DNA from: a plasmid
Direction: 5' to 3' (one strand)
DNA length: 64,000 nucleotides
Sequence record: NZ_CP148139.1
The translations under genes and the position numbers were made by a program. The notes beneath the pieces are model-generated. The model ran no database searches. It saw only the letters and a list, made by a program, of their open reading frames with translations, and had not been told where the DNA came from. Each line of letters begins with the position of its first letter. The stretch's first letter is position 1. Shown here in pieces: positions 1,861 through 64,000 of this stretch.

Positions 1861-2153
1861 TTTTTATAGGTCCTCCCATACTGTTTGAAATATTCATTGA
1901 GCTCTTTGTCTCGCTCATACGTAGCCGCATCTGCCGCTTGTCTGGCTTCATCAACCTGCTTTCTTTGTAGTTCTTCAGCCAGCTTCAGATAAGATTGAAT
2001 ATTCTCTTGGTTTGGTTCATTTGTTACGAGTTCAAACGCAGCTCTTTCACGTTCTTCCAATGAGCTGCACCCCATCAACGAAAACATGGCAACTGAAGCA
2101 CAAAAGTAAAAACGGGCGGTTGAGAATTCCCGTTGTGTTTTTTTCTTCATCAT
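1857..2153 (-). CDS. putative small lipoprotein (98 aa)
   Basis: N-terminal hydrophobic stretch ending in the lipobox-like 'LMGCSS'. Overlaps the flanking ORFs by 4 nt. Confidence 0.4.
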   Translation of the reverse strand: MMKKKTQREFSTARFYFCASVAMFSLMGCSSLEERERAAFELVTNEPNQENIQSYLKLAEELQRKQVDEARQAADAATYERDKELNEYFKQYGRTYKK

Positions 2154-24110: not shown

Positions 24111-24122
24111 ATATATACCTAT

Positions 24123-24160
24123 TTAAATAAAAACGCCTGAATAAATTCAGGCGTTAGTTT
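24123..24160 (-). terminator. rho-independent terminator
   Basis: aacgcctgaa-ttta-ttcaggcgtt followed by a T-rich run on the minus strand. Confidence 0.5.
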
Positions 24161-24174
24161 GGTTTCCCATATTA

Positions 24175-25362
24175 TTAGTAGAAAAATGGAACATCCTGAT
24201 TTTCATCTTCAACACTAAAGGATGAACTTGCAGGTAGATCCGAAGAAACTACTTCAGGTTCTGATTGAACATCAATTGGTGTCGGAGTTGGTGTCGTATT
24301 TTCTACAACATCTTGACTCACATTCGGCACTGTAACCGTTTGTGAGTTTTCGGCGACATTCACAATGTTTAAATCGTTTTCTGTTGGTTCAGCAAGATCA
24401 TCTTCATCGACTACAATTTCAATGAAATCACTATCAGTATTACCCGTTACAGGTACTGAAGTTGGTATGGCAATTGATACATCAATGTTGTTTGTAGTTT
24501 GTGGTAAAACAGTTAATTCCACATCTGATACATTGTTCACATTGGTGGAGTTTATTAACTGCTTCAAAGTTTTAATGTCTGATAACGTAATAAAAAGTGT
24601 TGTTACGGCAATTGATTCGTCATTAGACAATCTCCCAACGCTTGGCAACGTTGAAATAAAGTTACTCAAATAATCACTTAAACTGCCAGCATCTGGATTT
24701 AATACAGCTAATCCTTTCAGCTTACTTGCAACTTCTCGTAACGTATTGAGTGTAGTTTGAGATATGTTTGATGCATTGTATGAGCCACGTTCCCGTAACT
24801 CAGAAATTCTATCAACAACATCAAGCAGGACAGATTCTTTAAGGCTTTGTACTTTTTCTTCTGACTCGCCTTCACCAAAGGGTGAAATATTGAAAGAAGA
24901 AAAACCAAATTGTAGCTTTTCATCTAACCGCTTGACGTCAATCACTTCGGACTCAAACAGTTTTTTTACAGTTTCATCTTCTTTATCTAACCATGAAAGA
25001 AAATCAGTTGATATAGCGGATAAAAACTCATTTTTGAATATATAGAATTGGTCCTTTAAATCATTCAACTGCTGTCTTACGTGACTTGCAAGTGAAGTCG
25101 GCACTGCATACCCGTTCAAGAATGGAACACCATATTTTGAACAGATTGCATCAGCACCAGTACGAAAGGTACGCATTTTGTTGATTTTTGCAGGGTCAAT
25201 AACCTTTTTGGTTCCGAGGCTGGCTATTGTTTCGGGAGGCAGAACTATATCTCCAGTGTTAATAACCTTAATATCTTTACCTTTAAGTGTTTTTCTTCCA
25301 GTAGTTAAACGGATACCTTCCAGAGAAAAAATTACTACGTTTTCAAGAATGTTTGGGCTCAT
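24175..25362 (-). CDS. hypothetical protein (395 aa) between the AAA and vWA genes
   Basis: Conserved-looking N-terminal half, acidic and Thr-rich C-terminal tail. Position is typical of a cobS-DUF-vWA triad. Confidence 0.45.
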   Translation of the reverse strand: MSPNILENVVIFSLEGIRLTTGRKTLKGKDIKVINTGDIVLPPETIASLGTKKVIDPAKINKMRTFRTGADAICSKYGVPFLNGYAVPTSLASHVRQQLNDLKDQFYIFKNEFLSAISTDFLSWLDKEDETVKKLFESEVIDVKRLDEKLQFGFSSFNISPFGEGESEEKVQSLKESVLLDVVDRISELRERGSYNASNISQTTLNTLREVASKLKGLAVLNPDAGSLSDYLSNFISTLPSVGRLSNDESIAVTTLFITLSDIKTLKQLINSTNVNNVSDVELTVLPQTTNNIDVSIAIPTSVPVTGNTDSDFIEIVVDEDDLAEPTENDLNIVNVAENSQTVTVPNVSQDVVENTTPTPTPIDVQSEPEVVSSDLPASSSFSVEDENQDVPFFY

Positions 25363-25460
25363 AAATTCACCTACATATTTATATATTTAAAAAAGGCAAA
25401 TAGATAAATCTATTTACCTTGTCGATTTATTAATAATTAAAATTAAAAATAAGATTTGAA

Positions 25461-26468
25461 TTAAGATTTAAAATAAACATTAAACATATCGTTCAATGCT
25501 ATTTTTTCATCTTCAGGAGCTCTGTTAGAGATATGTAATTGCCATGCATCTAACAGAATATCTACCGGTGGTTGTTTAGAACGAAGCATAAAATCGAAAC
25601 GGCGAACAACATTCACAAGGCTTCTAGTTGAAATAGCGGTACTACTGAAGTTAGTGACTGTCGCAGATGTACTTTTACGTACATCGTTAGCCAGCTTTAT
25701 TAGTCCATCCGTCAGTAACTGATGTGATTCAGGATCAGACAAAAATGAAGCAAGTAGCTTACGTTCTTCTTTTTCGGGCATATAGTCAGCCTCAACAAAC
25801 ATAAACCTATCGAGGTTGGCTATATTCTGCGGTTTTACACCACTGTAATTTCCTGTCATATCACCGGTCCCATTACTGTTTGCAGTTACTGCAAATCTAA
25901 AGTTTTCATGGTGATGAATGCATTCATTTGTTTCAGGAATGACAAGAGAACCCATCTCTAAGATCCCGTTGAGGGAATTAGCTACGGAAGGTTCTAATTG
26001 GTCATACTCATCAATCAGAAAAACCAACCCATGCTTATACGCGATGGTTAGCGGTCCTTCATGAAAGACGGTTTCTTGATCACCCGTTAATTTATCGACT
26101 TTTAGCCGAAAACTACCGAGTAAGCTACTCATATCAAGATCAGGACTGGCTGTTACTTTCATCAATCCCCAATTCATACGAGCAGCAATTTGCTCAACTA
26201 TTGACGATTTTCCACAGCCAGTAGGTCCAGAAATCCAGAGTGATGTATCTAATGGGTTATCAAACCACATTAACACATGCTTTCTGAGTGAAGGTTCAAA
26301 CACATACTTCTCATTAAATTTCGGGATATACTCTGAAAATTGATGGTCATTAGAAAAACCCTTGATACTATATTTGCCCTTTAAATTCTCAGGCAGAATA
26401 ATACCTAAAGATTCCATATCGACCGGAGTGTTACGTTTAATATCAAAACTGTTATTTACAGCGTTCAT
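25461..26468 (-). CDS. AAA+ ATPase, MoxR/CobS-like
   Basis: Walker A 'GPTGCGKSS' and Walker B 'LVFLIDEYD'. About 335 aa. Confidence 0.7.
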   Translation of the reverse strand: MNAVNNSFDIKRNTPVDMESLGIILPENLKGKYSIKGFSNDHQFSEYIPKFNEKYVFEPSLRKHVLMWFDNPLDTSLWISGPTGCGKSSIVEQIAARMNWGLMKVTASPDLDMSSLLGSFRLKVDKLTGDQETVFHEGPLTIAYKHGLVFLIDEYDQLEPSVANSLNGILEMGSLVIPETNECIHHHENFRFAVTANSNGTGDMTGNYSGVKPQNIANLDRFMFVEADYMPEKEERKLLASFLSDPESHQLLTDGLIKLANDVRKSTSATVTNFSSTAISTRSLVNVVRRFDFMLRSKQPPVDILLDAWQLHISNRAPEDEKIALNDMFNVYFKS

Positions 26469-34302: not shown

Positions 34303-35570
34303 CAGTAATTCCTTTCTGCATATTCATTAACAATAAATTGCTTACCATGACCGGTTACAATGCTTGGAACATTACGAATCCCAAAACGTTCTTTCATACC
34401 TTCCTGTATAAAATATAAAGTGGCATTATCACCATACAAATTGCTATCTGAAAATGTTTCCCAACCATCCCCATATACGTCAGTTGCAATCAATGTAGGA
34501 ATTAAATTTTCATCTTTGGCATTTTGATATTGCTGTTGTGCAAATATACGTTGCCATTCTGAAGCAGGATTGAAGAAAATTAACTTCAAGTTAAATGGGA
34601 TAACGTCCATAGGGTTTACTCGCCCTTTTTTGGCAATTATGCGTCCATCTGGAGATAATATATCCTGTGGTATCACAACGCTTGGGTCTACATAGTGGGT
34701 GCTATCTTTTAGAGCTTCAGGGAATTTGTATATATCTTTATTCTTCCAGTATCGGTTATAGGCATCCTTTTTCATTTTCTCGAAATCTAGATTTTTAATA
34801 CCTTCTTCAATTAAATCCAGCATATTACGTTCAATTACCTCAATAACTGGTCCTTGCACACCCATATTCCCTGTTTTGTTATCGAGATAATTAACATTGG
34901 AAATTCCATGTACCAGAGATACAAATTCTCCATCATTTTCATGAATGATAGTCGGAATTGTTCGCACACCATATTTAATAAAAATGTTCGGATCTATTGT
35001 GAAATTCACTTCTGACTTTGTATCGCGAATTAATTTATGCCAGTGATTTATTTCATCGACCAGTGAATCTTTATTTCTAACTCCCTGAACAACTAGGATT
35101 ACATCATTACGACCTGATACTGACCGCATAATATCAATTACTTCAGTATCTTTAAGACTTGCCGAAATCAATATGTAAAATACATTACCTTTTTGCTGTT
35201 GGTTGAAATTTCCACTTTCATTCTGACTTTTGATCATCTCCTTCAGTATCTGAGCTTCATCAGTCGTTAGCTTGTTAATAGCCTGATTTGCCATGACGTT
35301 TTTATCTGCGATAAGCTGGCGCGTTGTTTCTCTGTGAGCTTCAGCTTGTGCCACTGCCACTGCTTTCAGTTTTTCCAAATCTGCCATGTCTGCATCAGTA
35401 GCTCGTTCGACAGTAGGAATGGATTCTGTATATGGAGTAACCATATTTAATTTACTATTTGCACTGGATGTAATGGACAGTGTTAATAGAGAAATCAATA
35501 ATGTAACTTTCTTTTTTACCATATCGGATATGCTCTCCCGATCACATTTTCTATGGGGAGTACGCCCCAA
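34302..35570 (-). CDS. traW: TraW (TrbC-TraW fusion type, as in SXT/R27-like systems)
   Basis: Signal peptide, 422 aa, and position between trhF and traU. Confidence 0.5.
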   Translation of the reverse strand: MGRTPHRKCDRESISDMVKKKVTLLISLLTLSITSSANSKLNMVTPYTESIPTVERATDADMADLEKLKAVAVAQAEAHRETTRQLIADKNVMANQAINKLTTDEAQILKEMIKSQNESGNFNQQQKGNVFYILISASLKDTEVIDIMRSVSGRNDVILVVQGVRNKDSLVDEINHWHKLIRDTKSEVNFTIDPNIFIKYGVRTIPTIIHENDGEFVSLVHGISNVNYLDNKTGNMGVQGPVIEVIERNMLDLIEEGIKNLDFEKMKKDAYNRYWKNKDIYKFPEALKDSTHYVDPSVVIPQDILSPDGRIIAKKGRVNPMDVIPFNLKLIFFNPASEWQRIFAQQQYQNAKDENLIPTLIATDVYGDGWETFSDSNLYGDNATLYFIQEGMKERFGIRNVPSIVTGHGKQFIVNEYAERNY

Positions 35571-36031
35571 TACCGTGAGTCAAAACTGACCTTGGTTCGA
35601 CCCATTAGCCAGATGTGACCAGCAGGAATTATCCCTTCACGTTGTAATTCCTGCTCTGTATGACCAGATTCTCTTGCTAATAGAAGTCCTTCACCCACCA
35701 TCAGATCATTGACCGTGGTTTCTTCAGGATTGACCCTAACCTTGTCACCAGCTACACCGTCTATAAATTTGATCGCAATGCTACTGATGTATTCAGACCG
35801 AAAAGCAAATATTTTCCCTTTCTGAATATCTTTATCCATTTTATCAATTAGATAAATTCTGTGTTCAGGGAGGCAGGGGTAGTTTTGTGGATCAATCCCA
35901 ATTGAAAAGCGATTAAGTACGTAATGGCTGGCAGGTGCGACAGTGACGACAATAACCAACATATAAAGAGATTGCCGCCCCCAACCTCGTTTTTTCCTTG
36001 AAATTCTTTTATAAAAATTCTTCAGGTGCAT
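35516..36031 (-). CDS. trhF: TraF/TrhF-like conjugative signal-peptidase (S26 family)
   Basis: C-terminal 'SFDSRYWGVLPIENVIGRA' matches the S26 box-E-like motif. About 171 aa. Lies immediately after traC. Confidence 0.55.
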   Translation of the reverse strand: MHLKNFYKRISRKKRGWGRQSLYMLVIVVTVAPASHYVLNRFSIGIDPQNYPCLPEHRIYLIDKMDKDIQKGKIFAFRSEYISSIAIKFIDGVAGDKVRVNPEETTVNDLMVGEGLLLARESGHTEQELQREGIIPAGHIWLMGRTKVSFDSRYWGVLPIENVIGRAYPIW

Positions 36032-54947: not shown

Positions 54948-56024
54948 TTATTCGGTAATTCTATTCTCACCAACTTTAAAATCCGGATTTGCTTCAAAAG
55001 AGAAACGCCACAGCCCAAGAACGCTTCCTTTATAATCTACAGGGATTTTGACTGAAAAAACGTCAGGTTCTGCTCCAGAGGTAATAGCTGTTACTTCCTG
55101 CTCATAGACGGTATGTTCATTAAATGCTTCAGTTATCATAGAACTTAGATTACCAAGTATTGAAAATCCATTTTTTTCAAAGCCCTCCATAGATTGGGGG
55201 ACAAATGAATAACGAACACTCTGTAACGTATTACTCTGAGTCATTACTGCTTCTGGTTCACCACACTCCCACTGACCGAATCTCATAAGATAGAAAGCTA
55301 TATTTTTTTCATTGTGATCAATAATTTCTTCTCCATCACAATACATTTTCACATCACCACAGACAAAATGCGCATAATTGTCATCATTGATAGAAATCTC
55401 TTGTGTATTATCTGCTACTAGTTCGATGATAAGTGGAGGCTTTGTTGCAATCATTACATCACCAAGCATTGCCATTTCACTGTTTCCTAAAGAATGCAAA
55501 GCACATGTTTCATATTTCGTTTTGCGCTCAATAAATGAAGTTACCGGTAGTAAAGTCCACATTCTTAGACAACGGTAGTATATTGCAAAAAAGAGAGGTA
55601 TCTGGTTTATTTCACTGTATCGCTGAAGTTTTTCAACATAATTCTTTGTAAGAAAATATGATGCTTTCGGGTTAGAATGATTACAATTTTTCACTTCAAC
55701 AAATACTTGTCTCCCATCTTTCAAAATGAGTCTGTAATCTGGTAACTTAATTTCGTCATCATCATAAATTACGTCACCTATATCTTCAGTTTTAATCAAA
55801 CGACAACCATGCAGACCAGCGACTACTTGACCAAAACAAGATTCCATACGCTTGCCGTGAAGCAAAATTGTATTTTCCTGAGATACTTTGAGAGTATCAC
55901 GAAAAACTTGCAGGAATTTTTCGGTATCTTCTTGTGATCTAAGTTTATAACCATGTTCACGGCTGAATGCTGTAAATACCTCTAGTGCTTCAAATTTTTC
56001 AGGGTTTCGTTCTAGGCGTTTCAT
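54948..56024 (-). CDS. PD-(D/E)XK nuclease-fold protein (358 aa)
   Basis: 'LPDYRLILKDGRQVFVEVKN' gives PD...EVK at canonical spacing. An acidic residue lies in the preceding helix ('EALEVF'). Confidence 0.5.
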   Translation of the reverse strand: MKRLERNPEKFEALEVFTAFSREHGYKLRSQEDTEKFLQVFRDTLKVSQENTILLHGKRMESCFGQVVAGLHGCRLIKTEDIGDVIYDDDEIKLPDYRLILKDGRQVFVEVKNCNHSNPKASYFLTKNYVEKLQRYSEINQIPLFFAIYYRCLRMWTLLPVTSFIERKTKYETCALHSLGNSEMAMLGDVMIATKPPLIIELVADNTQEISINDDNYAHFVCGDVKMYCDGEEIIDHNEKNIAFYLMRFGQWECGEPEAVMTQSNTLQSVRYSFVPQSMEGFEKNGFSILGNLSSMITEAFNEHTVYEQEVTAITSGAEPDVFSVKIPVDYKGSVLGLWRFSFEANPDFKVGENRITE

Positions 56025-56077: not shown

Positions 56078-56632
56078 TTATGTAGCTAAAAGCATTTCTA
56101 AATGATGTTTCACCAGAAATTTGAACATGACTCTATCATAACCGAGATATTGCTCGACTGATAAATTAGCAATGAATGCAGCTTCAGTCATTGTTATACC
56201 ATTTGGATTCTGATCTAAACCTAAAATTCGCCTCATAGCCTCTGATTCTGCACCTCTCATGAGTGTAAACACTTCATCAGAGCAACGATGTTCTGGAAGT
56301 AATTCCTTTGTAATTTTCAAGGGATTTACGCCAGCATGATAATTTGCTGTTTTGTCTCTCTCGATTAGGTTAATTCCTTGGTTTCCCTCGCGAAAATCAA
56401 TTAAAGGGTCTATGACGGTATGAGCCTTTGTCTCGATCCATGAGTATTGCAAAATGCTGTTTGTGTAAGCTAAATCTGTCTCCGGAGTTTGGACCAGTTC
56501 TTGCTTATAGATACCAATCACAGCCTCGCCCTCAATGTATCCCTTTTTTAATAATTGTCGGCATAATAGATATGAATATGGGTACATCTGAATATCGTCA
56601 GCTATTGTTCTCAGACTCGTGTATTTTTCCAT
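56078..56632 (-). CDS. hypothetical protein (184 aa), upstream partner of the nuclease
   Basis: ORF. Lies 54 bp upstream of the nuclease-fold gene. Confidence 0.4.
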   Translation of the reverse strand: MEKYTSLRTIADDIQMYPYSYLLCRQLLKKGYIEGEAVIGIYKQELVQTPETDLAYTNSILQYSWIETKAHTVIDPLIDFREGNQGINLIERDKTANYHAGVNPLKITKELLPEHRCSDEVFTLMRGAESEAMRRILGLDQNPNGITMTEAAFIANLSVEQYLGYDRVMFKFLVKHHLEMLLAT

Positions 56633-56690
56633 TTTGAATCCAAAAAAGCCCCAAAAAGGGGCTGTAAGGTAGTTTTGGGAGAGTTAACGA

Positions 56691-57665
56691 TCACTTACTG
56701 GTTGTGTTTGCGCTTACTTTTTCATAATGAATAGAATCAGTTCTTTCATCAGGGCTTTTCGCACTAAGTAATATAAATGTATAATTTTGTTTACCATGAG
56801 TGATGAATAAGTCTGTGCCGCCCCACACTTCAGAACTTGGCTTTTTAGATAAGAGCAAAATGTTATTTGGTAATAATTTGATATCGAAATGATCGTCATG
56901 GTCTGAGCCATTGATGAAGTAATTGAGCTCTTTAACGGCTTCAGATTGTGCAGGTAGGAAAATTTTCACTGCAAAATTACGGTAGAGATAGACTTTAGTT
57001 TGTGAATTTGGCGCGTATGGGATCGTTAATTGCCTCCCAACGTAGTCAAGATTTTGGTCATTTTCAGTGCGTTTATTTCTTTCTTCCAATGCTGCATCAA
57101 ATACGTTTTTAAAGTCTTGTTGCTGTGTTGGAGCCTGATTGCTGTAATACCCATCACTGAGCTCCTGAGCTGCCGGTGCAGGTGGTTGACCAGTAAAGTT
57201 GGTACTTAATGCCTGAGTGTGTTCCACTACTGAAGTAGCTGCTTCGCTAACATGCTCAAGCATGTCATTAATGCTTTGTTCGCTATCAGATGGATTCTGT
57301 TTTTCTGTATCGCCAGAATGTTCCTCTACTGCTTCTGAAAGCGTTTTAGCTACGTCACCTGTAACAGTGTCGGATTTAGCTTCAGATGTCGGAGAATCGG
57401 TTTTAGCTACGTTCTCGGCACTGTTCGATTCTGGTTCTGCCTCTTTTGGATTGTTAAAAACAGGAATAGAGGTTTCAACGTCACTATAATAATTAACATC
57501 AATTTCTGTCGCGTCTGTTGCTGGTTTTAGTAAAACAAATGCTGCTATTGCACCCGCTGAAACTGCAACTGCAATCATGGATTTTTTATTCAGAAGAAAA
57601 CCAAGTCCTTTTTTACTTTCATTTTTTTTAGTATTGGAAGAAACATCCATCATTTTGAGCCTCAA
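56691..57665 (-). CDS. membrane-anchored protein with acidic/Ser-rich linker and C-terminal beta-rich domain (324 aa)
   Basis: N-terminal TM 'MIAVAVSAGAIAAFVLL', a disordered acidic linker, and a conserved-looking C-terminal ~110 aa. Confidence 0.4.
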   Translation of the reverse strand: MRLKMMDVSSNTKKNESKKGLGFLLNKKSMIAVAVSAGAIAAFVLLKPATDATEIDVNYYSDVETSIPVFNNPKEAEPESNSAENVAKTDSPTSEAKSDTVTGDVAKTLSEAVEEHSGDTEKQNPSDSEQSINDMLEHVSEAATSVVEHTQALSTNFTGQPPAPAAQELSDGYYSNQAPTQQQDFKNVFDAALEERNKRTENDQNLDYVGRQLTIPYAPNSQTKVYLYRNFAVKIFLPAQSEAVKELNYFINGSDHDDHFDIKLLPNNILLLSKKPSSEVWGGTDLFITHGKQNYTFILLSAKSPDERTDSIHYEKVSANTTSK

Positions 57666-57742
57666 TAATCTGTGTTACGTGTATCTGCTATATGTTATAG
57701 AATTACACCCTACGAATAGGGCGCAATGGTTCTAAAAGCGGA

Positions 57743-58678
57743 TTACTTTCTTAACAGCAATAATTTATCGGCTATCATTTTTCCATCCATGAGTGTCAGA
57801 CGGTCGGATGTTCTGTGACTGTATAGAACTGCATCGTTAGAAAACTTACCTGATGTGACTAGAAATACATGCTTAAATTCGGGTTCTGCTTCTAGTACAC
57901 CAACCATTTCACGGGCGATAGCAACACCTACATTGTCAGATTTCCAGTGTTTGCATTGAGCGAAAACTTTAATTCCATCACGTTCCATAATGATATCTTT
58001 CCCACCATCTGGACCATAATTAGTGACAGTAGCTCTGTACCCAAGGCTGTTGAATAACTCTCTTATAAATTCCTCAAATTCTCGCCATGATAATTCTCGG
58101 ATAAATTGCAATGCATCTTCATGATAGGTGGCATTAAAAAGTACCTTTTTAAACATAGTTTGTTGTTTATAACGAAAATACACACTTGCTGAATAAGCCA
58201 CGAGCAGGAATGCAACGCAAGAGCGTAATATATGGAATGTATAATATGTACAAACTGGGATATTCCTCAGAGAGAATAATTTATTCGCACTGCTTTGCCC
58301 GAAAACATCTGCATATGCTGTTTTTATATCTCCCCATATCAGTTGTATGATTTTCGTTGTTATCACATGGTCATAACGAAGAAAAAATACAGTTATTGTG
58401 GTAACAGCAATTATCACTAATGCAACTTGAGGGTTTAATAGAGGGGCATTTCTTTTGATTCCCACTGAAGCCCATTCAGGTTTCTTTTTCTTGTGTAACC
58501 GCAATATTTTGCTGCTAGGTGACAATATATAAACAGCAAATAAAGGTATTACTAAAGTTAAAACTCTCGCAATAGAATCAAATCTAAGAAATACCAGAGT
58601 GGTCATATAGAATATAAAAGCAATATTCATATTAGTTACATAGGGATTTCGTTTCTTAAATCTACGCTTTCTTCTCAT
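57743..58678 (-). CDS. 4-TM membrane protein with C-terminal Mrr-type restriction-endonuclease catalytic domain
   Basis: Four hydrophobic helices in the N-terminal 170 aa. The C-terminal region has 'GPDGGKDII...VFAQCKHW', the Mrr_cat PD-(D/E)XK signature. Confidence 0.55.
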   Translation of the reverse strand: MRRKRRFKKRNPYVTNMNIAFIFYMTTLVFLRFDSIARVLTLVIPLFAVYILSPSSKILRLHKKKKPEWASVGIKRNAPLLNPQVALVIIAVTTITVFFLRYDHVITTKIIQLIWGDIKTAYADVFGQSSANKLFSLRNIPVCTYYTFHILRSCVAFLLVAYSASVYFRYKQQTMFKKVLFNATYHEDALQFIRELSWREFEEFIRELFNSLGYRATVTNYGPDGGKDIIMERDGIKVFAQCKHWKSDNVGVAIAREMVGVLEAEPEFKHVFLVTSGKFSNDAVLYSHRTSDRLTLMDGKMIADKLLLLRK

Positions 58679-58695
58679 TACAACATTCCAATTTA

Positions 58696-59265
58696 CTAAA
58701 ATAGTAGCTGTGTCACAGTAAGTAAGGCTCCGTTCGGAGTGATATGTATTCCATCCTTTGTGCGAACTGTTGTCCCATCTATGACATCCTTGTATGTTTC
58801 ACCAAGAACCGTTCGTGTATCTACGGTGGTGATCCCCTCTATCTGCGAAGCCGTCTTTATGGCTTGCCGAGTGTTATCTAATAGTCTGTTTTTGGCGGGG
58901 TCTTTAAGGGTTGGAGGAAGTAACCAGATCACATTTTGGTTTCTGGCTTTTATGGTTTGGATAAAATGCCGAACTTTAGAGGTGTACTTTTCTTTTTCTG
59001 ATATTTGAACATGGTCGTTAGTACCGAGAATCACATAAACGGTATCGTATTTTTCAAAACTGAATTGCTCTGCGTATCTCTGCCAATCAAGGATCTTCTT
59101 TGTGGATAATCCGCTACCTACTTTGTATCGAGCATCAACAGCTTGGATTGTGCTGTACCCTTTAGCTATCTCATAGGTAAGTGAATCTCCTATAAAAACA
59201 GGTTTGCTGTATGACATAGAAGAAAATAAAAGGGAGCTGATTACTGAGATTTTATAAATATTCAT
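58696..59265 (-). CDS. secreted SGNH/GDSL-family hydrolase
   Basis: Signal peptide. Block I 'FIGDSLT', block III 'GTND', and block V 'DGIH'. Confidence 0.7.
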   Translation of the reverse strand: MNIYKISVISSLLFSSMSYSKPVFIGDSLTYEIAKGYSTIQAVDARYKVGSGLSTKKILDWQRYAEQFSFEKYDTVYVILGTNDHVQISEKEKYTSKVRHFIQTIKARNQNVIWLLPPTLKDPAKNRLLDNTRQAIKTASQIEGITTVDTRTVLGETYKDVIDGTTVRTKDGIHITPNGALLTVTQLLF

Positions 59266-59605
59266 TGCAACCCATATCAGTTATAAGCCAAATCTCACTA
59301 CTTTGACTTGTGTTCTTTTTAAGCAATATCGAGCATGGTATAGATGCCATATCAATTTTTATTAATGTGTTGCCACTCCCCTTCACCTCATAGAGTTGCT
59401 TTATTTCGTTGGATTCAAGACCAGTAATCTCTCTTGCCAGTACATAGGTATCAGCTACTCTGTCGAAGCCACCAGAACTGACATGCTTATCTTGTGCGGC
59501 TTGCGTCACAAGATGCTCGTGTGTAGTGATCGCCCCTGTGGTAGAACCACAAGAGGATAAGAAAAAGCAAACTAATGCGATACAGCTTCTATTTATCCCC
59601 ATCAT
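59252..59605 (-). CDS. small putative lipoprotein (117 aa)
   Basis: 'LSSCGS' lipobox. Overlaps both flanking genes. Confidence 0.4.
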   Translation of the reverse strand: MMGINRSCIALVCFFLSSCGSTTGAITTHEHLVTQAAQDKHVSSGGFDRVADTYVLAREITGLESNEIKQLYEVKGSGNTLIKIDMASIPCSILLKKNTSQSSEIWLITDMGCNEYL

Positions 59606-60338
59606 TCCCCTCTGCCGTTTGAGCTTCAGAAATTACTTTTAAGCTATTCTCCCCTATATCAAAATCGCTTTTCATAAACTCAAGTGTAAAAGCCGTGGCT
59701 AAATACCGGCTTATCAAAAGTTCCTTTTTAACAAGCCCTCGCAAATGCCGTGGAGTTCCAACCGCATTTTCAAAAAAACGTGAATCCCATGAGTGATCCC
59801 TGTTATCGCCAAGAACAAAAACATATCCATCAGGGATTACCCATTGTGTATAAATTGGCTTAACGAATGGTTTACGGTTATCAATGACGTACTCATATTG
59901 TTGCGCATTACGTTCCTGAAGCGCCTGATAGGTACTCGTATGGTCATTATGAAGGTTTAGCTGCCCGATCATCCTTCCGTTGATCTGGACCGACTTATCA
60001 TCGGTATAAGTGACAGTATCGCCAGCCAATCCGATAATGCGTTTTACATAAATGAATGAAGGGAATGCAGGAGCTCGGAAAATCACGATATCCCCACGCA
60101 TCAATTGCTCTTTTTGCGCATCAACCGGCTTTGCAAAAATGAGATCACCAGCTTTCAATGTCGGTGCCATAGAGGATGTAGGGATAATGTAATAGTCCAA
60201 TAGGTAGGATTTAACGGACCATACAATAAGTGAAATTATTACCAAACTGACAGTATAAAAACTAGGCTTACGTTTACGATATACGAGGTAAAGAATTCGT
60301 AGGATAAGTGCAATAATAAGGGTACTTATGAAGTTCAT
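59589..60338 (-). CDS. lepB: signal peptidase I (LepB, S26A)
   Basis: N-terminal TM, the catalytic-Ser box 'IPTSSMAPTL', and 'GDNRDHSWDSRFF'. Confidence 0.8.
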   Translation of the reverse strand: MNFISTLIIALILRILYLVYRKRKPSFYTVSLVIISLIVWSVKSYLLDYYIIPTSSMAPTLKAGDLIFAKPVDAQKEQLMRGDIVIFRAPAFPSFIYVKRIIGLAGDTVTYTDDKSVQINGRMIGQLNLHNDHTSTYQALQERNAQQYEYVIDNRKPFVKPIYTQWVIPDGYVFVLGDNRDHSWDSRFFENAVGTPRHLRGLVKKELLISRYLATAFTLEFMKSDFDIGENSLKVISEAQTAEGNDGDK

Positions 60339-60418: not shown

Positions 60419-60841
60419 TCACTTTCTATTTTGATGGTGCATGGTTATGGCTTTCAAATATCCATAAAACCATAACATATTAAAGTGGCTACTTATTTTT
60501 AAAGGCAAGAAATAACATATAGTTTCACTGGAAAAAATAAGATATCCCATCTTATTATCTATTGCTTTAAAACTAATTGAATCAATATTGCTTTTAGAGT
60601 GCTTAAAATAGATGTGATAGCAATTCACATAAATTGCAATAAGAAAGAATGATGCTAACACCTTAGATAATTCAATTAATGCTATGCACTCTATAAAATC
60701 TCCAATTACTGAAATTAATACAATAAATATTAATATGGAAATATCAATTATGTTTTTTCTGCGTATTAATAAATACGCTGGATATACACAAGCAACGGTA
60801 AAAAAAATAATCTGAATGAAAGAGATGTATTTATTCTTCAT
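60419..60841 (-). CDS. small polytopic membrane protein (140 aa), very AT-rich
   Basis: Three or four hydrophobic helices. Confidence 0.4.
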   Translation of the reverse strand: MKNKYISFIQIIFFTVACVYPAYLLIRRKNIIDISILIFIVLISVIGDFIECIALIELSKVLASFFLIAIYVNCYHIYFKHSKSNIDSISFKAIDNKMGYLIFSSETICYFLPLKISSHFNMLWFYGYLKAITMHHQNRK

Positions 60842-61841
60842 TAGACCACCATTCAGGAGCTGCTAATGAATCATCTGAAACTTTCCAACCAAAGTTAATC
60901 AACATTTTCTTTATATTATAAGGTTTATCCATAAAATAGCTCATGTGGGTTTTATTGTTCTTTGTGACCTGCCCTGCTGCCCTAACTGAAGTAATACCAA
61001 TGTAGGTCGTTAAATCTGCAAGTGTATAACCTAAATACGTTACATCTGACAATTCTTCGATACGCTTATTTTCATGAATAGTGTTTAGTATGCCCTCTAA
61101 TTCTGATTTAACAAACATATACAATTGTCTGCTATCACTACCGGTTATTTCTTTCCTTTCATCGTAGTGGCTATTATGAACATTCTCATTATCCTTGTTA
61201 TTTTCAAGCCACCAATTAGGTGCAGATAAATTATTGTTGGTAACAACCCATCCATGATTAATAAGAACAAGCGCATTATTAAATGTATACTTTGAAAGTT
61301 TCAATTCATTAACTTCAGACAAAAAGATTGCTTGTTTATCAATGCATTCTAAAATACCAAGATCTATTAACATTGCGGTAATAGATGATTGATTTCTATG
61401 TATTTTATCTGCGATTGAGCTTAGGTTCATCTTGTTTTGTATCATGGAGATAACTATATGAATTTCCTCATTAACCCATACTGTTTCATTACGATTCAAT
61501 TCGATAGTGTTGCTCATAGGGAACTGATCATTACTCACCCACCACTTGGGGGATTTAAGAGATTCCTCCCTATTTGATAACTCATATATCCATCCAAGTT
61601 CTAGTAATTTAGGAATAAATGATGAATGAGGAATGAGGTAGTTTAAATTAGTACTCCTAGCCGTACATATCTTATTATCCTTGTGATTTATTTCACACAA
61701 TCCCATATTCAATAATTTAGAGAGGACATCATTTACACTACGACCGGTATATTTGCATGTTTTTTCAATGAAGAATGGCTCGTCAATCGCCCCAATCAAC
61801 TTTGTTATTTCGGAACAAGTCCATGTGGTTAGGTTTCGCAT
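60831..61841 (-). CDS. protein with three internal ~110-aa repeats (HTH-like segment followed by a GW...AP.WW motif)
   Basis: Each repeat ends 'LELGWIYELSN..KSPKWWVSND', 'LINHGWVVTNNNLSAPNWWLENN' or 'LINFGWKVSDDSLAAPEWWSNEE'. Confidence 0.45.
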   Translation of the reverse strand: MRNLTTWTCSEITKLIGAIDEPFFIEKTCKYTGRSVNDVLSKLLNMGLCEINHKDNKICTARSTNLNYLIPHSSFIPKLLELGWIYELSNREESLKSPKWWVSNDQFPMSNTIELNRNETVWVNEEIHIVISMIQNKMNLSSIADKIHRNQSSITAMLIDLGILECIDKQAIFLSEVNELKLSKYTFNNALVLINHGWVVTNNNLSAPNWWLENNKDNENVHNSHYDERKEITGSDSRQLYMFVKSELEGILNTIHENKRIEELSDVTYLGYTLADLTTYIGITSVRAAGQVTKNNKTHMSYFMDKPYNIKKMLINFGWKVSDDSLAAPEWWSNEE

Positions 61842-61861: not shown

Positions 61862-62680
61862 TTAAAATGGTATAATATTGGCATGGTCATAAGCTATTTC
61901 ATTGAATGTGTCTTTGGATATAATTTCAGTTTTAATACGTTCTAACATTGCCAGTTGATCCCATATTACTGTAAAATCATCTGAGCTAACATGATTATTA
62001 GTATATATATTATGAAATGCGTCTTTAAGGTTAAATATATTAATGTTGCTTCCATGCGAGTGTGTATTTATACCAAGGTAGTTAATCAACCACTGAATTT
62101 TGATAAGTCTAACGCAAAGATCTACACAGTATCGACTAACTTCATATTCTCCAGAAGCGAAAGATTCTGCATGTAATACAAGTTCCTCATATAACTTTAA
62201 AAACTCAAGGCTTTCTATCTTTGCTCTATGTTCTGTCAAAATGTTATAAATTTTAACTGTATTGCTATCTAAGTCATTTTCTTCAGGAAAATATAGCGTT
62301 ACCTTTTCTTGTTCACGCCAGTTTGGTTTTTTATTGTTTAATTCTAATTCCACGTATTTTTGAAGCCAAATATACTTAATTGATTTACTTGTTATAGATG
62401 TGTAGAAAACAAAAAATGGTACATTAAATAACAATGCATATTCTATAGTTTTGACGGGGAAATCTGGCATTTTAACACTACCATTAAAAATTTTTTCAGT
62501 GCCTTTGGCTTGTACAAAAAAACAGTCTCCTGTCGCTTTTTCGTTCTTAAATACTTGAATCATTAAATCGATCCCATAGTCACGTTCACCTATGGTATGG
62601 ACAACCCAATCTTTAGCTGGAACCTTCACATTGATAAGTGCATTTGCTTGAGAGTCGGTTACATGCGATTTACTTCTCAT
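61862..62680 (-). CDS. DUF4365/DREN-like PD-(D/E)XK nuclease-fold protein (272 aa)
   Basis: N-terminal 'ERDYGIDLMIQ...FFVQAKGT' resembles the DYGID...QxK signature recalled for DUF4365. Confidence 0.35.
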   Translation of the reverse strand: MRSKSHVTDSQANALINVKVPAKDWVVHTIGERDYGIDLMIQVFKNEKATGDCFFVQAKGTEKIFNGSVKMPDFPVKTIEYALLFNVPFFVFYTSITSKSIKYIWLQKYVELELNNKKPNWREQEKVTLYFPEENDLDSNTVKIYNILTEHRAKIESLEFLKLYEELVLHAESFASGEYEVSRYCVDLCVRLIKIQWLINYLGINTHSHGSNINIFNLKDAFHNIYTNNHVSSDDFTVIWDQLAMLERIKTEIISKDTFNEIAYDHANIIPF

Positions 62681-62693
62681 AATTCATCCTTTG

Positions 62694-63647
62694 TTAGTAT
62701 TGAAGGTTACGTGCAGCAGCCTCTAAGCGCGTTACACCTCGTTTATCATATCGCTGTGTAGTAGCGACACTACTGTGTCCCATCGCTTCTCTGACAGTAA
62801 GTAGGTCCTCACCGAGTTCTAACAGCTTAGTAGCATAGGTTCGGCGGCAATCATGGGGTGTGAATGACTCTAATTCTGAATCTTTCACCAATTTATCAAT
62901 AATATACCGTAAACCATCGGTTGTTATTCTATCGCAAGTCACATCATCATTTTTACGAATACGGGTGAAAACTGCACCGGAATGATCTCCCCTAACAGTT
63001 TCAATCCATAAGCGAGTGCGGCGGAGGGTATCACTTGGCATAAAATTAGTTCTTTCTTTGTTACCCTTCCCCATTATTTTTACGGCGTAGTTATCAAAAT
63101 TGATATCTTCCATATCTAACAAAGTGACTTCAGCACGGCGCAAACCGCATCCGAGCATCAGTGAAACAATCGCTGCATCACGTATAGAGACTGCGGTGTT
63201 TAGGCTATCAAGATGCTGATAAATTTGCGTTATTTCACTACTACTCAGTGAACGCCCTCTACCAATACGGTTCCCACGAATGCGACGTATGCTTCTAATA
63301 TCCTGATATGTATCGCTATCTATGGCTCGTGATGCTCTGGCTTCTTCAGCAACCCCTTTAATCGCGCTCAGGACTAGGTTGATACTATTTGGGGTCTTTT
63401 TCTCCAGTATTAACTTCTGAAGTACCAATTGGACCGAATCCCGATCCATAATGGACCAGTCAAACGTGAATGGGTCCTTAGAACGAAACAGCCTGACCAC
63501 CGACACGAGGCAGGATCGCATTGTCTTTTGACTTTGTTTGGAACGCAGCCGTAGCAAATAGCTGGTTGCTGGATTGTTGGTGTTTTTCGTCATGTTATTT
63601 ACATCAACAATACTTGTTACAGTGTCACGTAATATTAACTCTCCCAT
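62694..63647 (-). CDS. tyrosine recombinase (XerC/XerD-like)
   Basis: 'GLRRAEV' (Arg I), 'HDCRRTYAT' (His-x-x-Arg), and 'GHSSVATTQRY' (catalytic Tyr). 317 aa. Confidence 0.75.
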   Translation of the reverse strand: MGELILRDTVTSIVDVNNMTKNTNNPATSYLLRLRSKQSQKTMRSCLVSVVRLFRSKDPFTFDWSIMDRDSVQLVLQKLILEKKTPNSINLVLSAIKGVAEEARASRAIDSDTYQDIRSIRRIRGNRIGRGRSLSSSEITQIYQHLDSLNTAVSIRDAAIVSLMLGCGLRRAEVTLLDMEDINFDNYAVKIMGKGNKERTNFMPSDTLRRTRLWIETVRGDHSGAVFTRIRKNDDVTCDRITTDGLRYIIDKLVKDSELESFTPHDCRRTYATKLLELGEDLLTVREAMGHSSVATTQRYDKRGVTRLEAAARNLQY

Positions 63648-64000
63648 TACCGCCCTCTTTGGTGTAGAAAATTAGTGTAAAAATTATCGTTGATTCTGGT
63701 GCGTCAAACAGCAATACCTATCGAAAACCTAAAAAGATTTTACGCTACTACATTAAACGTATATTTAACCGAGTAAAGGGTAGCACAGGTATTTATCATC
63801 GAATAGCTAAAATATCGGTATTAGTACGCATTAAAAGGCTTGCAATCTTTAAATTGTTGTATAATGAAATTACGTTGTAAGTTCATAAAACTAATAATGA
63901 TTTTTACATTACTAATTACCTAACTGTTTCGGAGAGGGATAATGTCAGCGGTAAATGACTTGGGCTTTGGTTTGGTTATTACATTTTGGATCTGTCTAGC

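What the first reader, a model, noticed from the sequence alone, without database searches (positions are those of the whole stretch)
57743..60338. Four-gene operon: signal peptidase I, lipoprotein, secreted SGNH hydrolase and a 4-TM Mrr-catalytic-domain membrane nuclease
Four minus-strand genes overlap or abut one another, with 17-nt and 14-nt overlaps and a 17-nt gap. This implies a single transcript. They encode a full-length LepB with an intact catalytic Ser box, a small lipoprotein, a GDSL/SGNH esterase with a signal peptide, and a membrane protein whose soluble domain carries the Mrr_cat restriction-endonuclease signature (GPDGG.D...QCK). A membrane-tethered Mrr-type nuclease domain coupled to secretion-processing and envelope-modifying enzymes is an unusual combination. 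It is not a recognised conjugation module. LepB alone could serve TraA propilin processing, like TrhP in R27-type systems. It could instead be an envelope-associated defence or exclusion system, for example nuclease attack on incoming DNA at the membrane.
Basis: partly seen in the sequence, partly recalled or inferred. Interest (0 to 1): 0.6.

Follow-up and report, generated by a model that had tools for sequence, protein, structure and literature searches.

The report
Conjugation accessory operon with membrane nuclease
The four genes are real, but they belong to a larger gene block that helps a Proteus/Providencia resistance plasmid build its DNA-transfer machine; tests of the corresponding genes in the related plasmid Rts1 show the signal peptidase is needed for mating, while the membrane-bound nuclease is a conserved passenger whose role is still unknown.

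Summary
Four minus-strand genes overlap or abut exactly as described. They encode a LepB-type signal peptidase, a lipoprotein, a secreted SGNH enzyme and a 4-TM protein with an intact Mrr-type nuclease domain.

The window is a pPrY2001-type MOBH/MPF_F conjugative plasmid. The genes are not a stand-alone unit. They lie inside a block (140-aa membrane protein, lepB, lipoprotein, SGNH, TM-Mrr, 324-aa protein, terminator, 184-aa protein) that matches Rts1 orf184-orf192.

Published Rts1 deletions (PMC10838148) show:
- lepB (orf185) and orf191 act in mating-pair formation.
- orf192 aids transfer.
- The lipoprotein (orf187) and TM-Mrr (orf189) counterparts are dispensable for E. coli-to-E. coli mating.

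The order lepB-lipoprotein-TM-Mrr-orf191-orf192 is kept in at least eight diverged plasmid lineages. The nuclease domain faces the cytoplasm, and its E-D-QxK residues are always kept.

The SGNH gene belongs to the PatB/DUF459 family. It is a lineage-specific insert that occurs independently on many plasmids of Morganellaceae. The 324-aa protein carries a VirB9 N-terminal-domain fold.

A separate TrhF/TrhP-type peptidase sits in the tra operon. The defence or exclusion idea for the nuclease is untested, not refuted.

The parts
60419..60841 (-). 140-aa multi-TM protein gene directly upstream of lepB; positional counterpart of Rts1 orf184; not annotated in RefSeq NZ_CP072987.1
   Evidence: ORF. 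It is 39% identical over 99 aa (6e-21) to the gene preceding lepB in a Photorhabdus plasmid contig. Small TM genes occupy the same position in Arsenophonus, Rts1, pKOX, Xenorhabdus, Cronobacter and Citrobacter plasmids. The Rts1 orf184 deletion gave 0.45 of wild-type transfer.
59589..60338 (-). LepB-type signal peptidase I (S26A), 249 aa, two N-terminal TM segments; orthologue of Rts1 Orf185
   Evidence: Peptidase_S26 1.5e-36. TIGR02227 scores 119.7 bits against a cut-off of 47. S56, K99 and the GDNRD box are invariant. It is 39% identical to Rts1 Orf185. The Rts1 orf185 deletion reduces conjugation to 0.00097 and mobilisation to 0.0002 of wild type.
59252..59605 (-). 117-aa lipoprotein, Rts1 Orf187 family; lipobox LSSC; conserved C-terminal PC...W...GC motif
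   Evidence: Alignment of 8 orthologues has Cys19 and Cys91 invariant. A GAGGGG Shine-Dalgarno sequence precedes the 59605 start. No match in Pfam, NCBIfam or the PDB. The Rts1 orf187 deletion gave 0.35 of wild type.
58696..59265 (-). Secreted SGNH enzyme of the PatB/DUF459 family (minimal catalytic domain, 189 aa); a lineage-specific insert in the block
   Evidence: DUF459 scores 82.9 bits against a cut-off of 27.2. Best solved relatives are PatB 8tlb (3.9e-6) and a DUF459 protein 8gr2. DUF459 is the PatB family (PMC9487903). The gene is present at this position only in the window, L009 and Photorhabdus lineages. Homologues occur on 176 plasmid records, 153 of them from Morganellaceae, in unrelated backbones.
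57743..58678 (-). 4-TM inner-membrane protein with a C-terminal cytoplasmic Mrr-type PD-(D/E)xK nuclease domain; orthologue of Rts1 Orf189
   Evidence: Mrr_cat 5.4e-23. E202, D224, D228, Q241 and K243 are conserved. The AlphaFold model has mean pLDDT 77, with helices at 12-30, 35-52, 83-102 and 137-185 followed by an Mrr fold. Best structural matches are MspJI, AF1548, AspBHI and FokI. Positive-inside analysis puts both termini in the cytoplasm. It is 26% identical to Rts1 Orf189 over 300 aa.
57702..57727 (-). 11-bp stem-loop just after the Mrr stop codon, with no U-tract; possibly an attenuator or an mRNA-stability element, not a canonical terminator
   Evidence: RNA fold gives -19.5 kcal/mol, z = -2.2. 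The terminator scan does not call it.
56691..57665 (-). 324-aa bitopic membrane protein: basic N-terminus, one TM segment, an acidic low-complexity linker and a conserved C-terminal VirB9-N-terminal-domain-like beta-sandwich (residues about 195-324); orthologue of Rts1 Orf191
   Evidence: It is 34% identical to the Rts1 Orf191 C-terminus. Alignment of 7 lineages is. AlphaFold gives pLDDT 80. The top Foldseek hit is the R388 TrwF/VirB9 N-terminal domain (7o3t_B, 9.9e-7, TM-scores 0.62 and 0.69), followed by Xanthomonas VirB9, CagX and DotH. Orthologues give weak CagX Pfam hits. The Rts1 orf191 deletion gave 0.056 and was assigned to Mpf.
56647..56663 (-). Canonical intrinsic terminator (GC stem plus U6) 28 nt after the stop of the 324-aa gene; likely end of the transcription unit
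56078..56632 (-). 184-aa protein, orthologue of Rts1 Orf192 (needed for efficient transfer, not for mating-pair formation)
   Evidence: It is 33% identical to Rts1 Orf192 and 45% to the Arsenophonus counterpart. The Rts1 orf192 deletion gave 0.018 with mobilisation at 1.2.
35516..36031 (-). Context: the plasmid's other S26 peptidase (171 aa), TrhF/TrhP-type, between traC and trbC/traW
   Evidence: Peptidase_S26 2e-18. TraF_Ti 2.3e-12. Position shown. Rts1 trhF (orf215) is essential.

Best explanation
This is the pPrY2001-lineage copy of an accessory transfer-gene block. The block is shared by a clade of MOBH/MPF_F plasmids of Enterobacterales and was defined functionally in Rts1 as orf184-orf192.

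Shown by orthology to tested Rts1 genes:
- The LepB-type peptidase is a second, plasmid-dedicated type I signal peptidase needed for mating-pair formation.
- The downstream 324-aa protein also acts in mating-pair formation.
- The 184-aa protein aids transfer.

Shown here:
- The 324-aa protein is a membrane-anchored protein with a periplasmic domain like the VirB9 N-terminal domain. This ties the operon physically to the type IV secretion core.
- The SGNH gene is a minimal PatB-family enzyme that was inserted into the block in one sub-clade only.

Inferred:
- LepB cleaves the leader peptides of plasmid-encoded exported transfer proteins, such as the TraA prepilin (predicted cleavage AYG/KG).
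- The lipoprotein and the VirB9-like protein join the periplasmic scaffold.
- The PatB-like enzyme edits peptidoglycan O-acetylation in Morganellaceae hosts, which have O-acetylated walls. It is not functionally tied to LepB or to the nuclease.

The 4-TM Mrr protein sits in the inner membrane with an apparently active nuclease domain in the cytoplasm. It is co-inherited with the block but is not needed for donor function. My best guess, which is inference only, is that it is a guard nuclease. It would be expressed together with the mating apparatus and would act on DNA arriving at the membrane, whether from competing plasmids, retrotransfer or pilus-dependent phages.
For: Plasmid identity:
- The operon is 100% identical to NZ_CP072987.1 (MOBH, MPF_F) and is present in 66 plasmid records.

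Orthology to Rts1 by BLASTP:
- LepB 39%.
- Mrr 26% over 300 aa.
- Orf191 C-terminus 34%.
- Orf192 33%.
- Lipoprotein C-terminal motif.

Conserved gene order:
- The same order is found in Arsenophonus, Rts1, pKOX, Xenorhabdus, Cronobacter, Logan contig L009, Photorhabdus and Citrobacter pBM527-1 plasmids.

Rts1 deletion phenotypes, relative to wild type (PMC10838148):
- orf185: 0.00097.
- orf186: below 0.0001.
- orf187: 0.35.
- orf188-190: 0.38.
- orf191: 0.056.
- orf192: 0.018.

Protein features:
- VirB9-NTD fold of the 324-aa protein.
- Topology and catalytic residues of the Mrr protein. Rts1-type orthologues add a C-terminal four-Cys topoisomerase zinc ribbon, which suggests DNA binding and a cytoplasmic location.
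- The TM-Mrr family is tiny and always sits in this block.
- PatB-family assignment and independent spread of the SGNH gene. The host genera appear in the review's table, in its section on PG O-acetylation.
- The operon ends at a canonical terminator after the 324-aa gene.
Against: - All functional evidence comes from Rts1 orthologues that are only 26-39% identical and were tested only in E. coli-to-E. coli matings. Nothing was tested in this plasmid.
- This lineage lacks orf186, which is essential in Rts1. It is nonetheless conjugative, so requirements differ between lineages.
- No substrate of the LepB homologue is known.
- Co-transcription and control by the FlhDC-like activator were not demonstrated. 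My motif searches were inconclusive.
- The guard-nuclease role has no direct support. There is no partner methyltransferase and no DNA-recognition domain in this lineage. A Photorhabdus copy is truncated.
Confidence: 0.7

Rival explanations
1. The four genes form one dedicated envelope-associated defence or exclusion system that is independent of conjugation. In this view the peptidase, lipoprotein and esterase serve a membrane nuclease that attacks incoming DNA.
For: - The genes overlap or abut tightly.
- The Mrr domain matches the PADLOC candidate PDC-S02 (1.5e-12) and type IV restriction models.
- The nuclease is dispensable in donors.
Against: - The LepB and Orf191 counterparts are mating-pair-formation genes.
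- The SGNH gene is missing from the block in five of eight lineages and travels alone on unrelated plasmids.
- The PADLOC matches cover only the Mrr domain.
- The block keeps a fixed place next to traA and mobH across deep divergence, unlike typical defence islands.
Confidence: 0.07
2. The TM-Mrr protein is a donor-side transfer factor that matters only in native hosts or conditions. For example, it could process or anchor plasmid DNA at the secretion channel in Proteus or Providencia. Its dispensability in E. coli laboratory matings would then be misleading.
For: - It is strictly co-inherited with mating-pair genes in eight lineages.
- Rts1-type copies carry a topoisomerase-type zinc ribbon.
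- A ParB-like gene lies next to it in Rts1-type plasmids.
- The Rts1 assays used E. coli only.
- The orf188-190 deletion gave a 2.6-fold drop.
Against: - The 2.6-fold change was not counted as significant by the authors.
- No known conjugation system needs a PD-(D/E)xK membrane nuclease.
- The Photorhabdus copy is truncated.
Confidence: 0.2
3. There is no functional link. The lipoprotein, SGNH and Mrr genes are hitch-hiking cargo that happens to lie between real transfer genes.
For: - The SGNH gene clearly moves independently.
- Deletions of orf187 and orf188-190 have no clear phenotype.
- Lineage-specific insertions occur nearby: DUF4365, a ParE toxin-antitoxin pair and a ParB-like gene.
Against: - The lipoprotein and TM-Mrr genes keep their order and their key residues at 16-45% identity across eight lineages. 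Neutral cargo would not.
- The TM part has only three matches among 1.84 billion cluster representatives, and none of those looked up lies outside this block.
Confidence: 0.12
4. The Mrr domain is catalytically silent and serves as a membrane-tethered DNA-binding module.
For: - There is a weak match to the 'inactive restriction endonuclease' family NA-iREase1 (8.7e-5, below the cut-off). Rts1 Orf189 matches more strongly (4e-11).
- There is no immunity or methylase partner.
Against: E202, D224, D228, Q241 and K243 are kept in all lineages. Mrr_cat scores much higher than NA-iREase1.
Confidence: 0.1

Closest known systems
Rts1 (IncT) orf184-orf192 region (Murata, Gotoh and Hayashi 2024, DNA Res 31:dsae002)
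   Same: - The order is the same: small TM gene, lepB, lipoprotein, TM-Mrr, Orf191-type, Orf192-type.
- The neighbourhood is the same: a UvrD-like helicase gene, traA and mobH.
- Orthologues are 26-39% identical.
   Different: - The window lacks orf186 (essential in Rts1), orf188 and the ParB-like orf190.
- It has a PatB-like SGNH gene inserted.
- Its Mrr protein lacks the C-terminal zinc ribbon.
TrhP of R27, TrhF of SXT and Rts1, and TraF of RP4 (pilin-maturation S26 peptidases)
   Same: Same S26 fold, and a role in pilus or mating-pair formation.
   Different: - The TrhF/TrhP-type gene of this plasmid is a different one (35516-36031).
- The LepB here is a two-TM, LepB-like S26A enzyme with a Ser/Lys dyad.
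- It scores below the TraF model cut-off (28.9 against 100).
Mrr, MspJI and AspBHI type IV restriction endonucleases
   Same: The catalytic domain has the same fold and the same E-D-QxK motif.
   Different: - There is no Mrr_N or SRA DNA-recognition domain.
- The N-terminus is instead a 4-TM membrane anchor found only in this plasmid clade.
- Activity and specificity are unknown.
PatB, the peptidoglycan O-acetyltransferase B of Gram-negative bacteria (DUF459)
   Same: The Pfam family is matched above its cut-off. The SGNH blocks, the signal peptide and the periplasmic location are the same.
   Different: - Only the minimal catalytic domain is present (189 aa).
- It scores far below the PatB equivalog cut-off (24.7 against 580).
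- No PatA (MBOAT) partner is on the plasmid.
- Whether it acts as a transferase or an esterase is unknown.
VirB9/TrwF N-terminal domain of type IV secretion core complexes
   Same: The C-terminal domain of the 324-aa protein has this fold (TM-scores 0.62-0.69, E = 1e-6).
   Different: - The domain hangs on an inner-membrane anchor through a long acidic linker.
- There is no VirB9 C-terminal domain.
- The plasmid already has TraK as its VirB9 equivalent.
Exclusion factors of related elements (Sfx lipoprotein of IncC, PMC11493245; Eex inner-membrane proteins of SXT/R391, the latter from memory)
   Same: These are conserved envelope proteins that are dispensable in donors and are encoded in or near transfer operons. 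This is an analogy only.
   Different: No sequence relationship was shown. Sfx is a 286-aa lipoprotein. No exclusion factor with a nuclease domain is known to me.

Membership tests
Type I signal peptidase (S26A, LepB-like) | Ser/Lys catalytic dyad and conserved boxes B-E | tested here: met
   S56, K99 and GDNRDxSxDSR are invariant in 7 orthologues. The Rts1 paper names the equivalent residues Ser56 and Lys101.
Type I signal peptidase (S26A, LepB-like) | Family model scores above the curated cut-off | tested here: met
   TIGR02227 scores 119.7 against 47. Pfam S26 scores 126.3 against 22.9. E. coli SPase I structures match at 1e-14.
Housekeeping E. coli-type LepB (NF008114 equivalog) | Full-length match above the equivalog cut-off | tested here: not met
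   74.1 bits against a cut-off of 277. It is a plasmid paralogue, not the housekeeping enzyme.
Conjugative TraF/TrhP pilin-processing peptidase | TraF model above cut-off, and position within the tra operon between traC and traW | tested here: not met
   TraF_Ti scores 28.9 against 100. The gene at that position is the other S26 gene, 35516-36031.
Rts1 orf184-192 accessory transfer block | Orthologues of orf185, orf187, orf189, orf191 and orf192 in the same order, next to traA and mobH | tested here: met
   BLASTP results; contexts.
Rts1 orf184-192 accessory transfer block | Presence of orf186 (essential for mating-pair formation in Rts1) | tested here: not met
   No tblastn hit in the window. 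No hit in pPrY2001-type plasmids. Nothing similar in the rest of the plasmid.
Rts1 orf184-192 accessory transfer block | Requirement for conjugation and mating-pair formation | not testable with these tools
   Known only for Rts1.
Mrr_cat / PD-(D/E)xK nuclease | Pfam model above cut-off and the conserved E...D...(Q/E)xK motif | tested here: met
   81.7 bits against 21. E202, D224, D228, Q241 and K243 are conserved.
Mrr_cat / PD-(D/E)xK nuclease | Restriction-endonuclease-like fold | tested here: met
   Top Foldseek hits are MspJI, AF1548, AspBHI and FokI.
Type IV restriction enzyme (Mrr/MspJI type) | A DNA-recognition domain (Mrr_N, SRA) and modification-dependent cleavage | tested here: not met
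   No such domain is found. The N-terminus is four TM helices. Cleavage is not testable here.
PADLOC candidate defence gene PDC-S02 | Full-length match to the model and a defence phenotype | tested here: inconclusive
   The match (1.5e-12) covers only residues 192-303, which is the Mrr domain. No phenotype data were found.
PatB / DUF459 SGNH family | Pfam DUF459 above cut-off, with the SGNH catalytic blocks | tested here: met
   82.9 bits against 27.2. GDS, G, GTND and DGIH are read from the sequence. PatB structures are the best PDB matches.
Bona fide PatB (peptidoglycan O-acetyltransferase B) | Equivalog score, and a partner PatA (MBOAT) gene | tested here: not met
   24.7 bits against 580. 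No MBOAT gene is annotated on the plasmid.
Bacterial lipoprotein | Signal peptide ending in a lipobox with an invariant Cys | tested here: met
   LSSC, LTGC, IGGC and ISGC variants; Cys19 is invariant in 8 orthologues.
VirB9 N-terminal domain (for the 324-aa protein) | Fold match to VirB9-NTD in solved T4SS core complexes | tested here: met
   7o3t_B at E = 9.9e-7 with TM-scores 0.62 and 0.69; also 6gyb, 6x6j and 7mue. The Pfam CagX match is weak and below the cut-off.

The most novel reading that the evidence does not exclude
The 4-TM Mrr protein, perhaps together with the small lipoprotein, could be a recipient-side guard built into a transfer operon. It would be a membrane-tethered nuclease that destroys DNA entering at or near the mating channel. 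The incoming DNA could come from related or competing plasmids, from retrotransfer or from pilus-dependent phages. That would make it a nuclease-based form of entry exclusion or defence, co-expressed with the pilus that creates the vulnerability.
Probability: 0.18. Interest if true: 0.7.

Novelty: new member of a known kind. Interest (0 to 1): 0.38.

Why it matters
pPrY2001-type plasmids spread NDM-1 and other resistance genes in Proteus and Providencia, so knowing their full transfer gene set matters for understanding that spread.

This analysis does four things:
- It transfers the experimentally defined Rts1 accessory genes to this plasmid family. It also shows that one Rts1-essential gene (orf186) has been lost here without loss of conjugation.
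- It gives a fold to a previously homology-less mating-pair gene: Orf191 has a VirB9-NTD-like domain.
- It isolates a tiny, strictly block-bound family of membrane-tethered Mrr nucleases whose role is open.
- It flags a plasmid-borne PatB-like enzyme that is almost confined to bacteria with O-acetylated peptidoglycan.

None of this overturns current views. The nuclease and the PatB-like gene are testable leads.

Tried and rejected
1. De novo search for a box bound by the plasmid's FlhDC-like activator.
- I ran my own expectation-maximisation script on 22 promoter regions. The first run timed out.
- The second run gave only AT-rich, low-information motifs. This is inconclusive.

2. Phylogenetic footprinting upstream of orf184 in Rts1-type plasmids.
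- It found a conserved TTTTGACCNCAAAA box.
- The box is absent from the window.
- In Rts1 it is not enriched (9 hits against 6 expected) and is not upstream of traL, traV or traA. It cannot be called the activator's box.

3. PDB sequence search with the Mrr protein gave only spurious staphopain hits. Fold search was needed instead.

4. The genome-contig scan with the SGNH protein returned only two near-identical Proteus contigs. It gave no information on distant chromosomal relatives.

5. Literature searches for membrane-anchored Mrr nucleases on plasmids and for PDC-S02 gave nothing relevant. The 'Mrr' hits in PMC8125031 stand for 'multiple resistance region'.

6. I considered whether Rts1's classic restriction of T-even phages could be due to orf189. 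I rejected this from memory, because that phenotype is attributed to PvuRts1I, a different gene. This was not checked here.

7. I looked for an Eex-like gene downstream of traG. No convincing candidate was found, so the plasmid's exclusion genes remain unknown.

8. I considered whether the 324-aa protein is a LepB substrate. Its N-terminal hydrophobic segment has no conserved AxA-type site across lineages, so I make no claim.

Full report
**Observation**

The overlaps are 17 nt and 14 nt and the gap is 17 nt. All but the small one have strong family matches: Peptidase_S26 at 1.5e-36, DUF459 at 2.6e-23 with Lipase_GDSL_2 at 7.5e-11, and Mrr_cat at 5.4e-23.

The small ORF has a lipobox (LSSC) and a GAGGGG ribosome-binding site. 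It has orthologues with an invariant lipobox Cys and a conserved C-terminal PC...W...GC motif. RefSeq annotates it from an internal start (59252-59509), which removes the signal peptide.

**What the window is**

The operon is 100% identical to the plasmid of E. coli T159A (NZ_CP072987.1; MOBH relaxase, MPF_F). It occurs in 66 plasmid records, mostly from Providencia and Proteus, and 56 of these are typed conjugative. These are the pPrY2001-like plasmids of the resistance literature. pHFK418-NDM, one of the records 100% identical across the operon (NZ_MH491967.1, 145,619 bp), transfers to E. coli J53.

The window carries the full F-type transfer set, an FlhC/FlhD-like activator pair and an SLT gene. 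It also carries a second S26 peptidase (35516-36031) between traC and trbC/traW, which is the TrhF/TrhP position.

**The operon is larger than four genes**

- Upstream, 80 nt away, lies a 140-aa multi-TM gene (60419-60841). RefSeq does not annotate it, but it is 39% identical to the gene before lepB in a Photorhabdus plasmid contig.
- It overlaps a 336-aa gene. That gene follows a DUF4365 gene and a tyrosine recombinase gene with gaps of only 13-20 nt.
- Downstream, 77 nt after the Mrr stop codon, lies a 324-aa gene. The first canonical intrinsic terminator on this strand (GC stem plus U6, 56647-56663) comes right after it.
- A stem-loop without a U-tract follows the Mrr stop codon. The Mrr gene has no terminator of its own by the scan.
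- Promoter-like matches are no more frequent than in shuffled sequence. Transcript boundaries therefore remain inferred.

**Conservation as a unit**

tblastn and protein searches with the Mrr protein find full-length relatives only on related plasmids of Enterobacterales. In every case examined the neighbourhood is the same:
- Arsenophonus pArsFIN8 (Mrr 44-45% identical).
- A Logan contig, L009, whose orf186-like gene is identical to that of a Xenorhabdus sp. TH1 plasmid (Mrr 47%).
- Photorhabdus (Mrr truncated to its TM part).
- Rts1 (26%).
- pKOX (27%).
- Xenorhabdus KJ12.1.
- Cronobacter.
- Citrobacter pBM527-1-type plasmids.

The shared order is: small TM gene, lepB, (orf186-type), lipoprotein, (small TM gene or SGNH), TM-Mrr, (ParB-like), Orf191-type, Orf192-type. 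A UvrD-like helicase gene, traA and mobH follow. BLASTP confirms orthology for LepB, the lipoprotein, Mrr, the 324-aa protein and the 184-aa protein.

The N-terminal 190 residues of the Mrr protein have only three matches among 1.84 billion cluster representatives. The 4-TM anchor is therefore specific to this block. I found no copy of the gene outside the block.

**Published function**

Murata, Gotoh and Hayashi (2024) deleted every Rts1 gene except repA and tested E. coli-to-E. coli transfer and mobilisation of a CloDF13 derivative. I mapped their ORFs to the Rts1 locus by length and coordinates.

| Rts1 gene(s) | Counterpart | Conjugation relative to wild type | Assignment |
|---|---|---|---|
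| orf184 | small TM gene | 0.45 | none |
| orf185 | LepB | 0.00097 (mobilisation 0.0002) | mating-pair formation |
| orf186 | absent from window | below 0.0001 | mating-pair formation |
| orf187 | lipoprotein | 0.35 | none |
| orf188-190 | includes TM-Mrr (orf189) | 0.38 | none |
| orf191 | 324-aa protein | 0.056 | mating-pair formation |
| orf192 | 184-aa protein | 0.018 (mobilisation 1.2) | not mating-pair formation |
| orf191-192 together | both | 0.00065 | not given |

The authors note that Rts1 needs two peptidases (Orf185 and TrhF). They state that the substrate of the LepB homologue is unknown. The block is thus a recognised part of the conjugation region of this plasmid clade. Within it, the nuclease and the lipoprotein are the conserved members that donors can do without.

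**The LepB homologue**

- It has two N-terminal hydrophobic segments separated by RKRKP.
- S56 and K99 are invariant, as is the GDNRDxSWDSR box.
- It passes the bacterial signal peptidase I model but not the E. coli LepB equivalog or the TraF models.
- TraA of this plasmid has an ordinary-looking leader ending in AYG/KG. Pilin is a plausible but unproven substrate.

**The Mrr protein**

- Hydropathy and the positive-inside rule give four TM helices with both ends in the cytoplasm. There are 9 Lys/Arg before TM1, 8 in the TM2-TM3 loop, and RYKQQTMFKK after TM4.
- The AlphaFold model (mean pLDDT 77) has helices at 12-30, 35-52, 83-102 and 137-185, followed by an alpha/beta domain.
- The best solved neighbours of that domain are MspJI, AF1548, AspBHI and the FokI cleavage domain.
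- W198..F201-E202, G222-x-D224-x-x-x-D228 and Q241-x-K243 are kept in all eight lineages.
- Rts1-type and Citrobacter-type copies add a four-Cys topoisomerase-type zinc ribbon at the C-terminus. This suggests DNA binding and a cytoplasmic location.
- PADLOC models match only the Mrr domain (PDC-S02, ZorD nuclease, type IV REase).
- No methyltransferase or recognition domain accompanies the gene.

The catalytic residues align and the domain has access to DNA. The gene also does not occur independently of the block. What is missing is any phenotype.

**The SGNH protein**

DUF459 is the PatB family, the periplasmic peptidoglycan O-acetyltransferases of Gram-negative bacteria. The best solved relatives are PatB structures. 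However, the protein is a bare 189-aa catalytic domain. It scores far below the PatB equivalog cut-off, and the plasmid has no PatA partner.

It occupies this position only in the window, L009 and Photorhabdus lineages. Homologues occur on 176 plasmid records, 153 of them from Providencia, Proteus, Morganella or Moellerella. The backbones are unrelated:
- After a MobF relaxase on a 49-kb plasmid.
- On a 27-kb MOBC plasmid.
- On a 206-kb MOBH plasmid.
- Elsewhere on IncT plasmids.

These host genera appear in the table of a review's section on peptidoglycan O-acetylation. O-acetylation controls the activity of lytic transglycosylases (abstract of PMC6627197). I infer a host-wall-related accessory role, perhaps helping the plasmid's SLT enzyme. 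I also infer no functional tie to LepB or to the nuclease.

**The 324-aa protein**

Across seven lineages it has a basic N-terminus, one TM segment, a variable acidic or Ala/Pro-rich linker and a conserved C-terminal domain of about 110 residues. The AlphaFold model of residues 195-324 (pLDDT 80) matches the VirB9 N-terminal domain of the R388 core complex (E = 9.9e-7, TM-scores 0.62 and 0.69). It also matches Xanthomonas VirB9, CagX and DotH. The Rts1 paper reported no homology for Orf191. This fold assignment links the operon to the secretion core.

**Differences from Rts1**

The orf186-type gene is essential in Rts1 and is present in Arsenophonus, L009, pKOX, Xenorhabdus, Cronobacter and Citrobacter plasmids. 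It is absent from the window and from the Photorhabdus contig. The plasmid family still conjugates. L009 has both orf186 and the SGNH gene, so the window's arrangement arose by loss of orf186.

**Verdict**

The thing is a new member of a known kind: the accessory transfer block of Rts1-type MOBH/MPF_F plasmids. It has a lineage-specific PatB-like insert and has lost orf186.

The membrane-tethered Mrr nuclease is a conserved, uncharacterised component. A guard, exclusion or defence role is the most interesting reading still open, and it rests on inference only.

Noticed in passing
window 63735-63778 (upstream of the recombinase gene 62694-63647): A block of about 45 nt (CTTTACTCGGTTAAATA...TTTAATGTAGTA...AAAATCT) is almost invariant upstream of the tyrosine recombinase gene in the window, Arsenophonus, L009 and Photorhabdus plasmids. 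The flanking DNA has diverged. It contains a TTAAA-N6-TTTAA inverted repeat. It may be the recombinase's own target (a multimer-resolution site) or an operator.
   Followed up: partly
window 59252-59605: RefSeq (NZ_CP072987.1) starts the lipoprotein gene at an internal Met (59509), which loses the signal peptide and lipobox. Orthologues and a GAGGGG Shine-Dalgarno sequence support the 59605 start.
   Followed up: yes
window 60419-60841: A 140-aa multi-TM gene is not annotated in RefSeq. It is conserved (39% identity) in a Photorhabdus plasmid contig at the same position before lepB.
   Followed up: yes
window 60831-61841: A 336-aa protein of unknown function is built of three tandem repeats of about 110 aa. 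Each repeat ends in a xPxWW motif (SPKWW, APNWW, APEWW). It is conserved in L009 (39%) and Photorhabdus (51%), and offset self-alignments confirm the repeats. It has no family match.
   Followed up: partly
window 61862-62680 and 54948-56024: Two lineage-specific genes flank the conserved block, and both look like PD-(D/E)xK nucleases. One is a DUF4365 protein (7e-14), also present in Photorhabdus but absent from L009. The other is a 358-aa protein with a D...EVK motif and no family match. They may be inserted defence-type cargo.
   Followed up: no
L009 3543-4133; absent from window: The orf186-type gene is essential for mating-pair formation in Rts1. It has been lost from the pPrY2001 and Photorhabdus lineages, although these plasmids still conjugate.
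   Followed up: yes
window 58696-59265; L011-L014: Minimal PatB-like SGNH genes are carried by 176 plasmid records, almost all from Morganellaceae. The backbones are unrelated and include small mobilisable plasmids. This is a host-restricted plasmid accessory gene that has apparently not been studied.
   Followed up: partly
L004 4160-4200 (Rts1), L005, L006, L008: A conserved palindromic box (TTTTGACCNCAAAA) lies upstream of orf184 in Rts1-type plasmids. A second, inverted copy lies between orf187 and orf188. Related sequences lie upstream of the UvrD-like gene and of orf218 in Rts1. The statistics are weak and its role is unknown.
   Followed up: partly
window 22335-26468: A MoxR ATPase, DUF3150 and VWA gene triad sits between the traFHG genes and the bet/exo genes. 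MoxR and DUF3150 genes occupy a similar place in Rts1.
   Followed up: no
window 2150-2986: A Tus-like 'DNA replication terminus site-binding protein' gene lies next to the plasmid's replication initiator gene.
   Followed up: no
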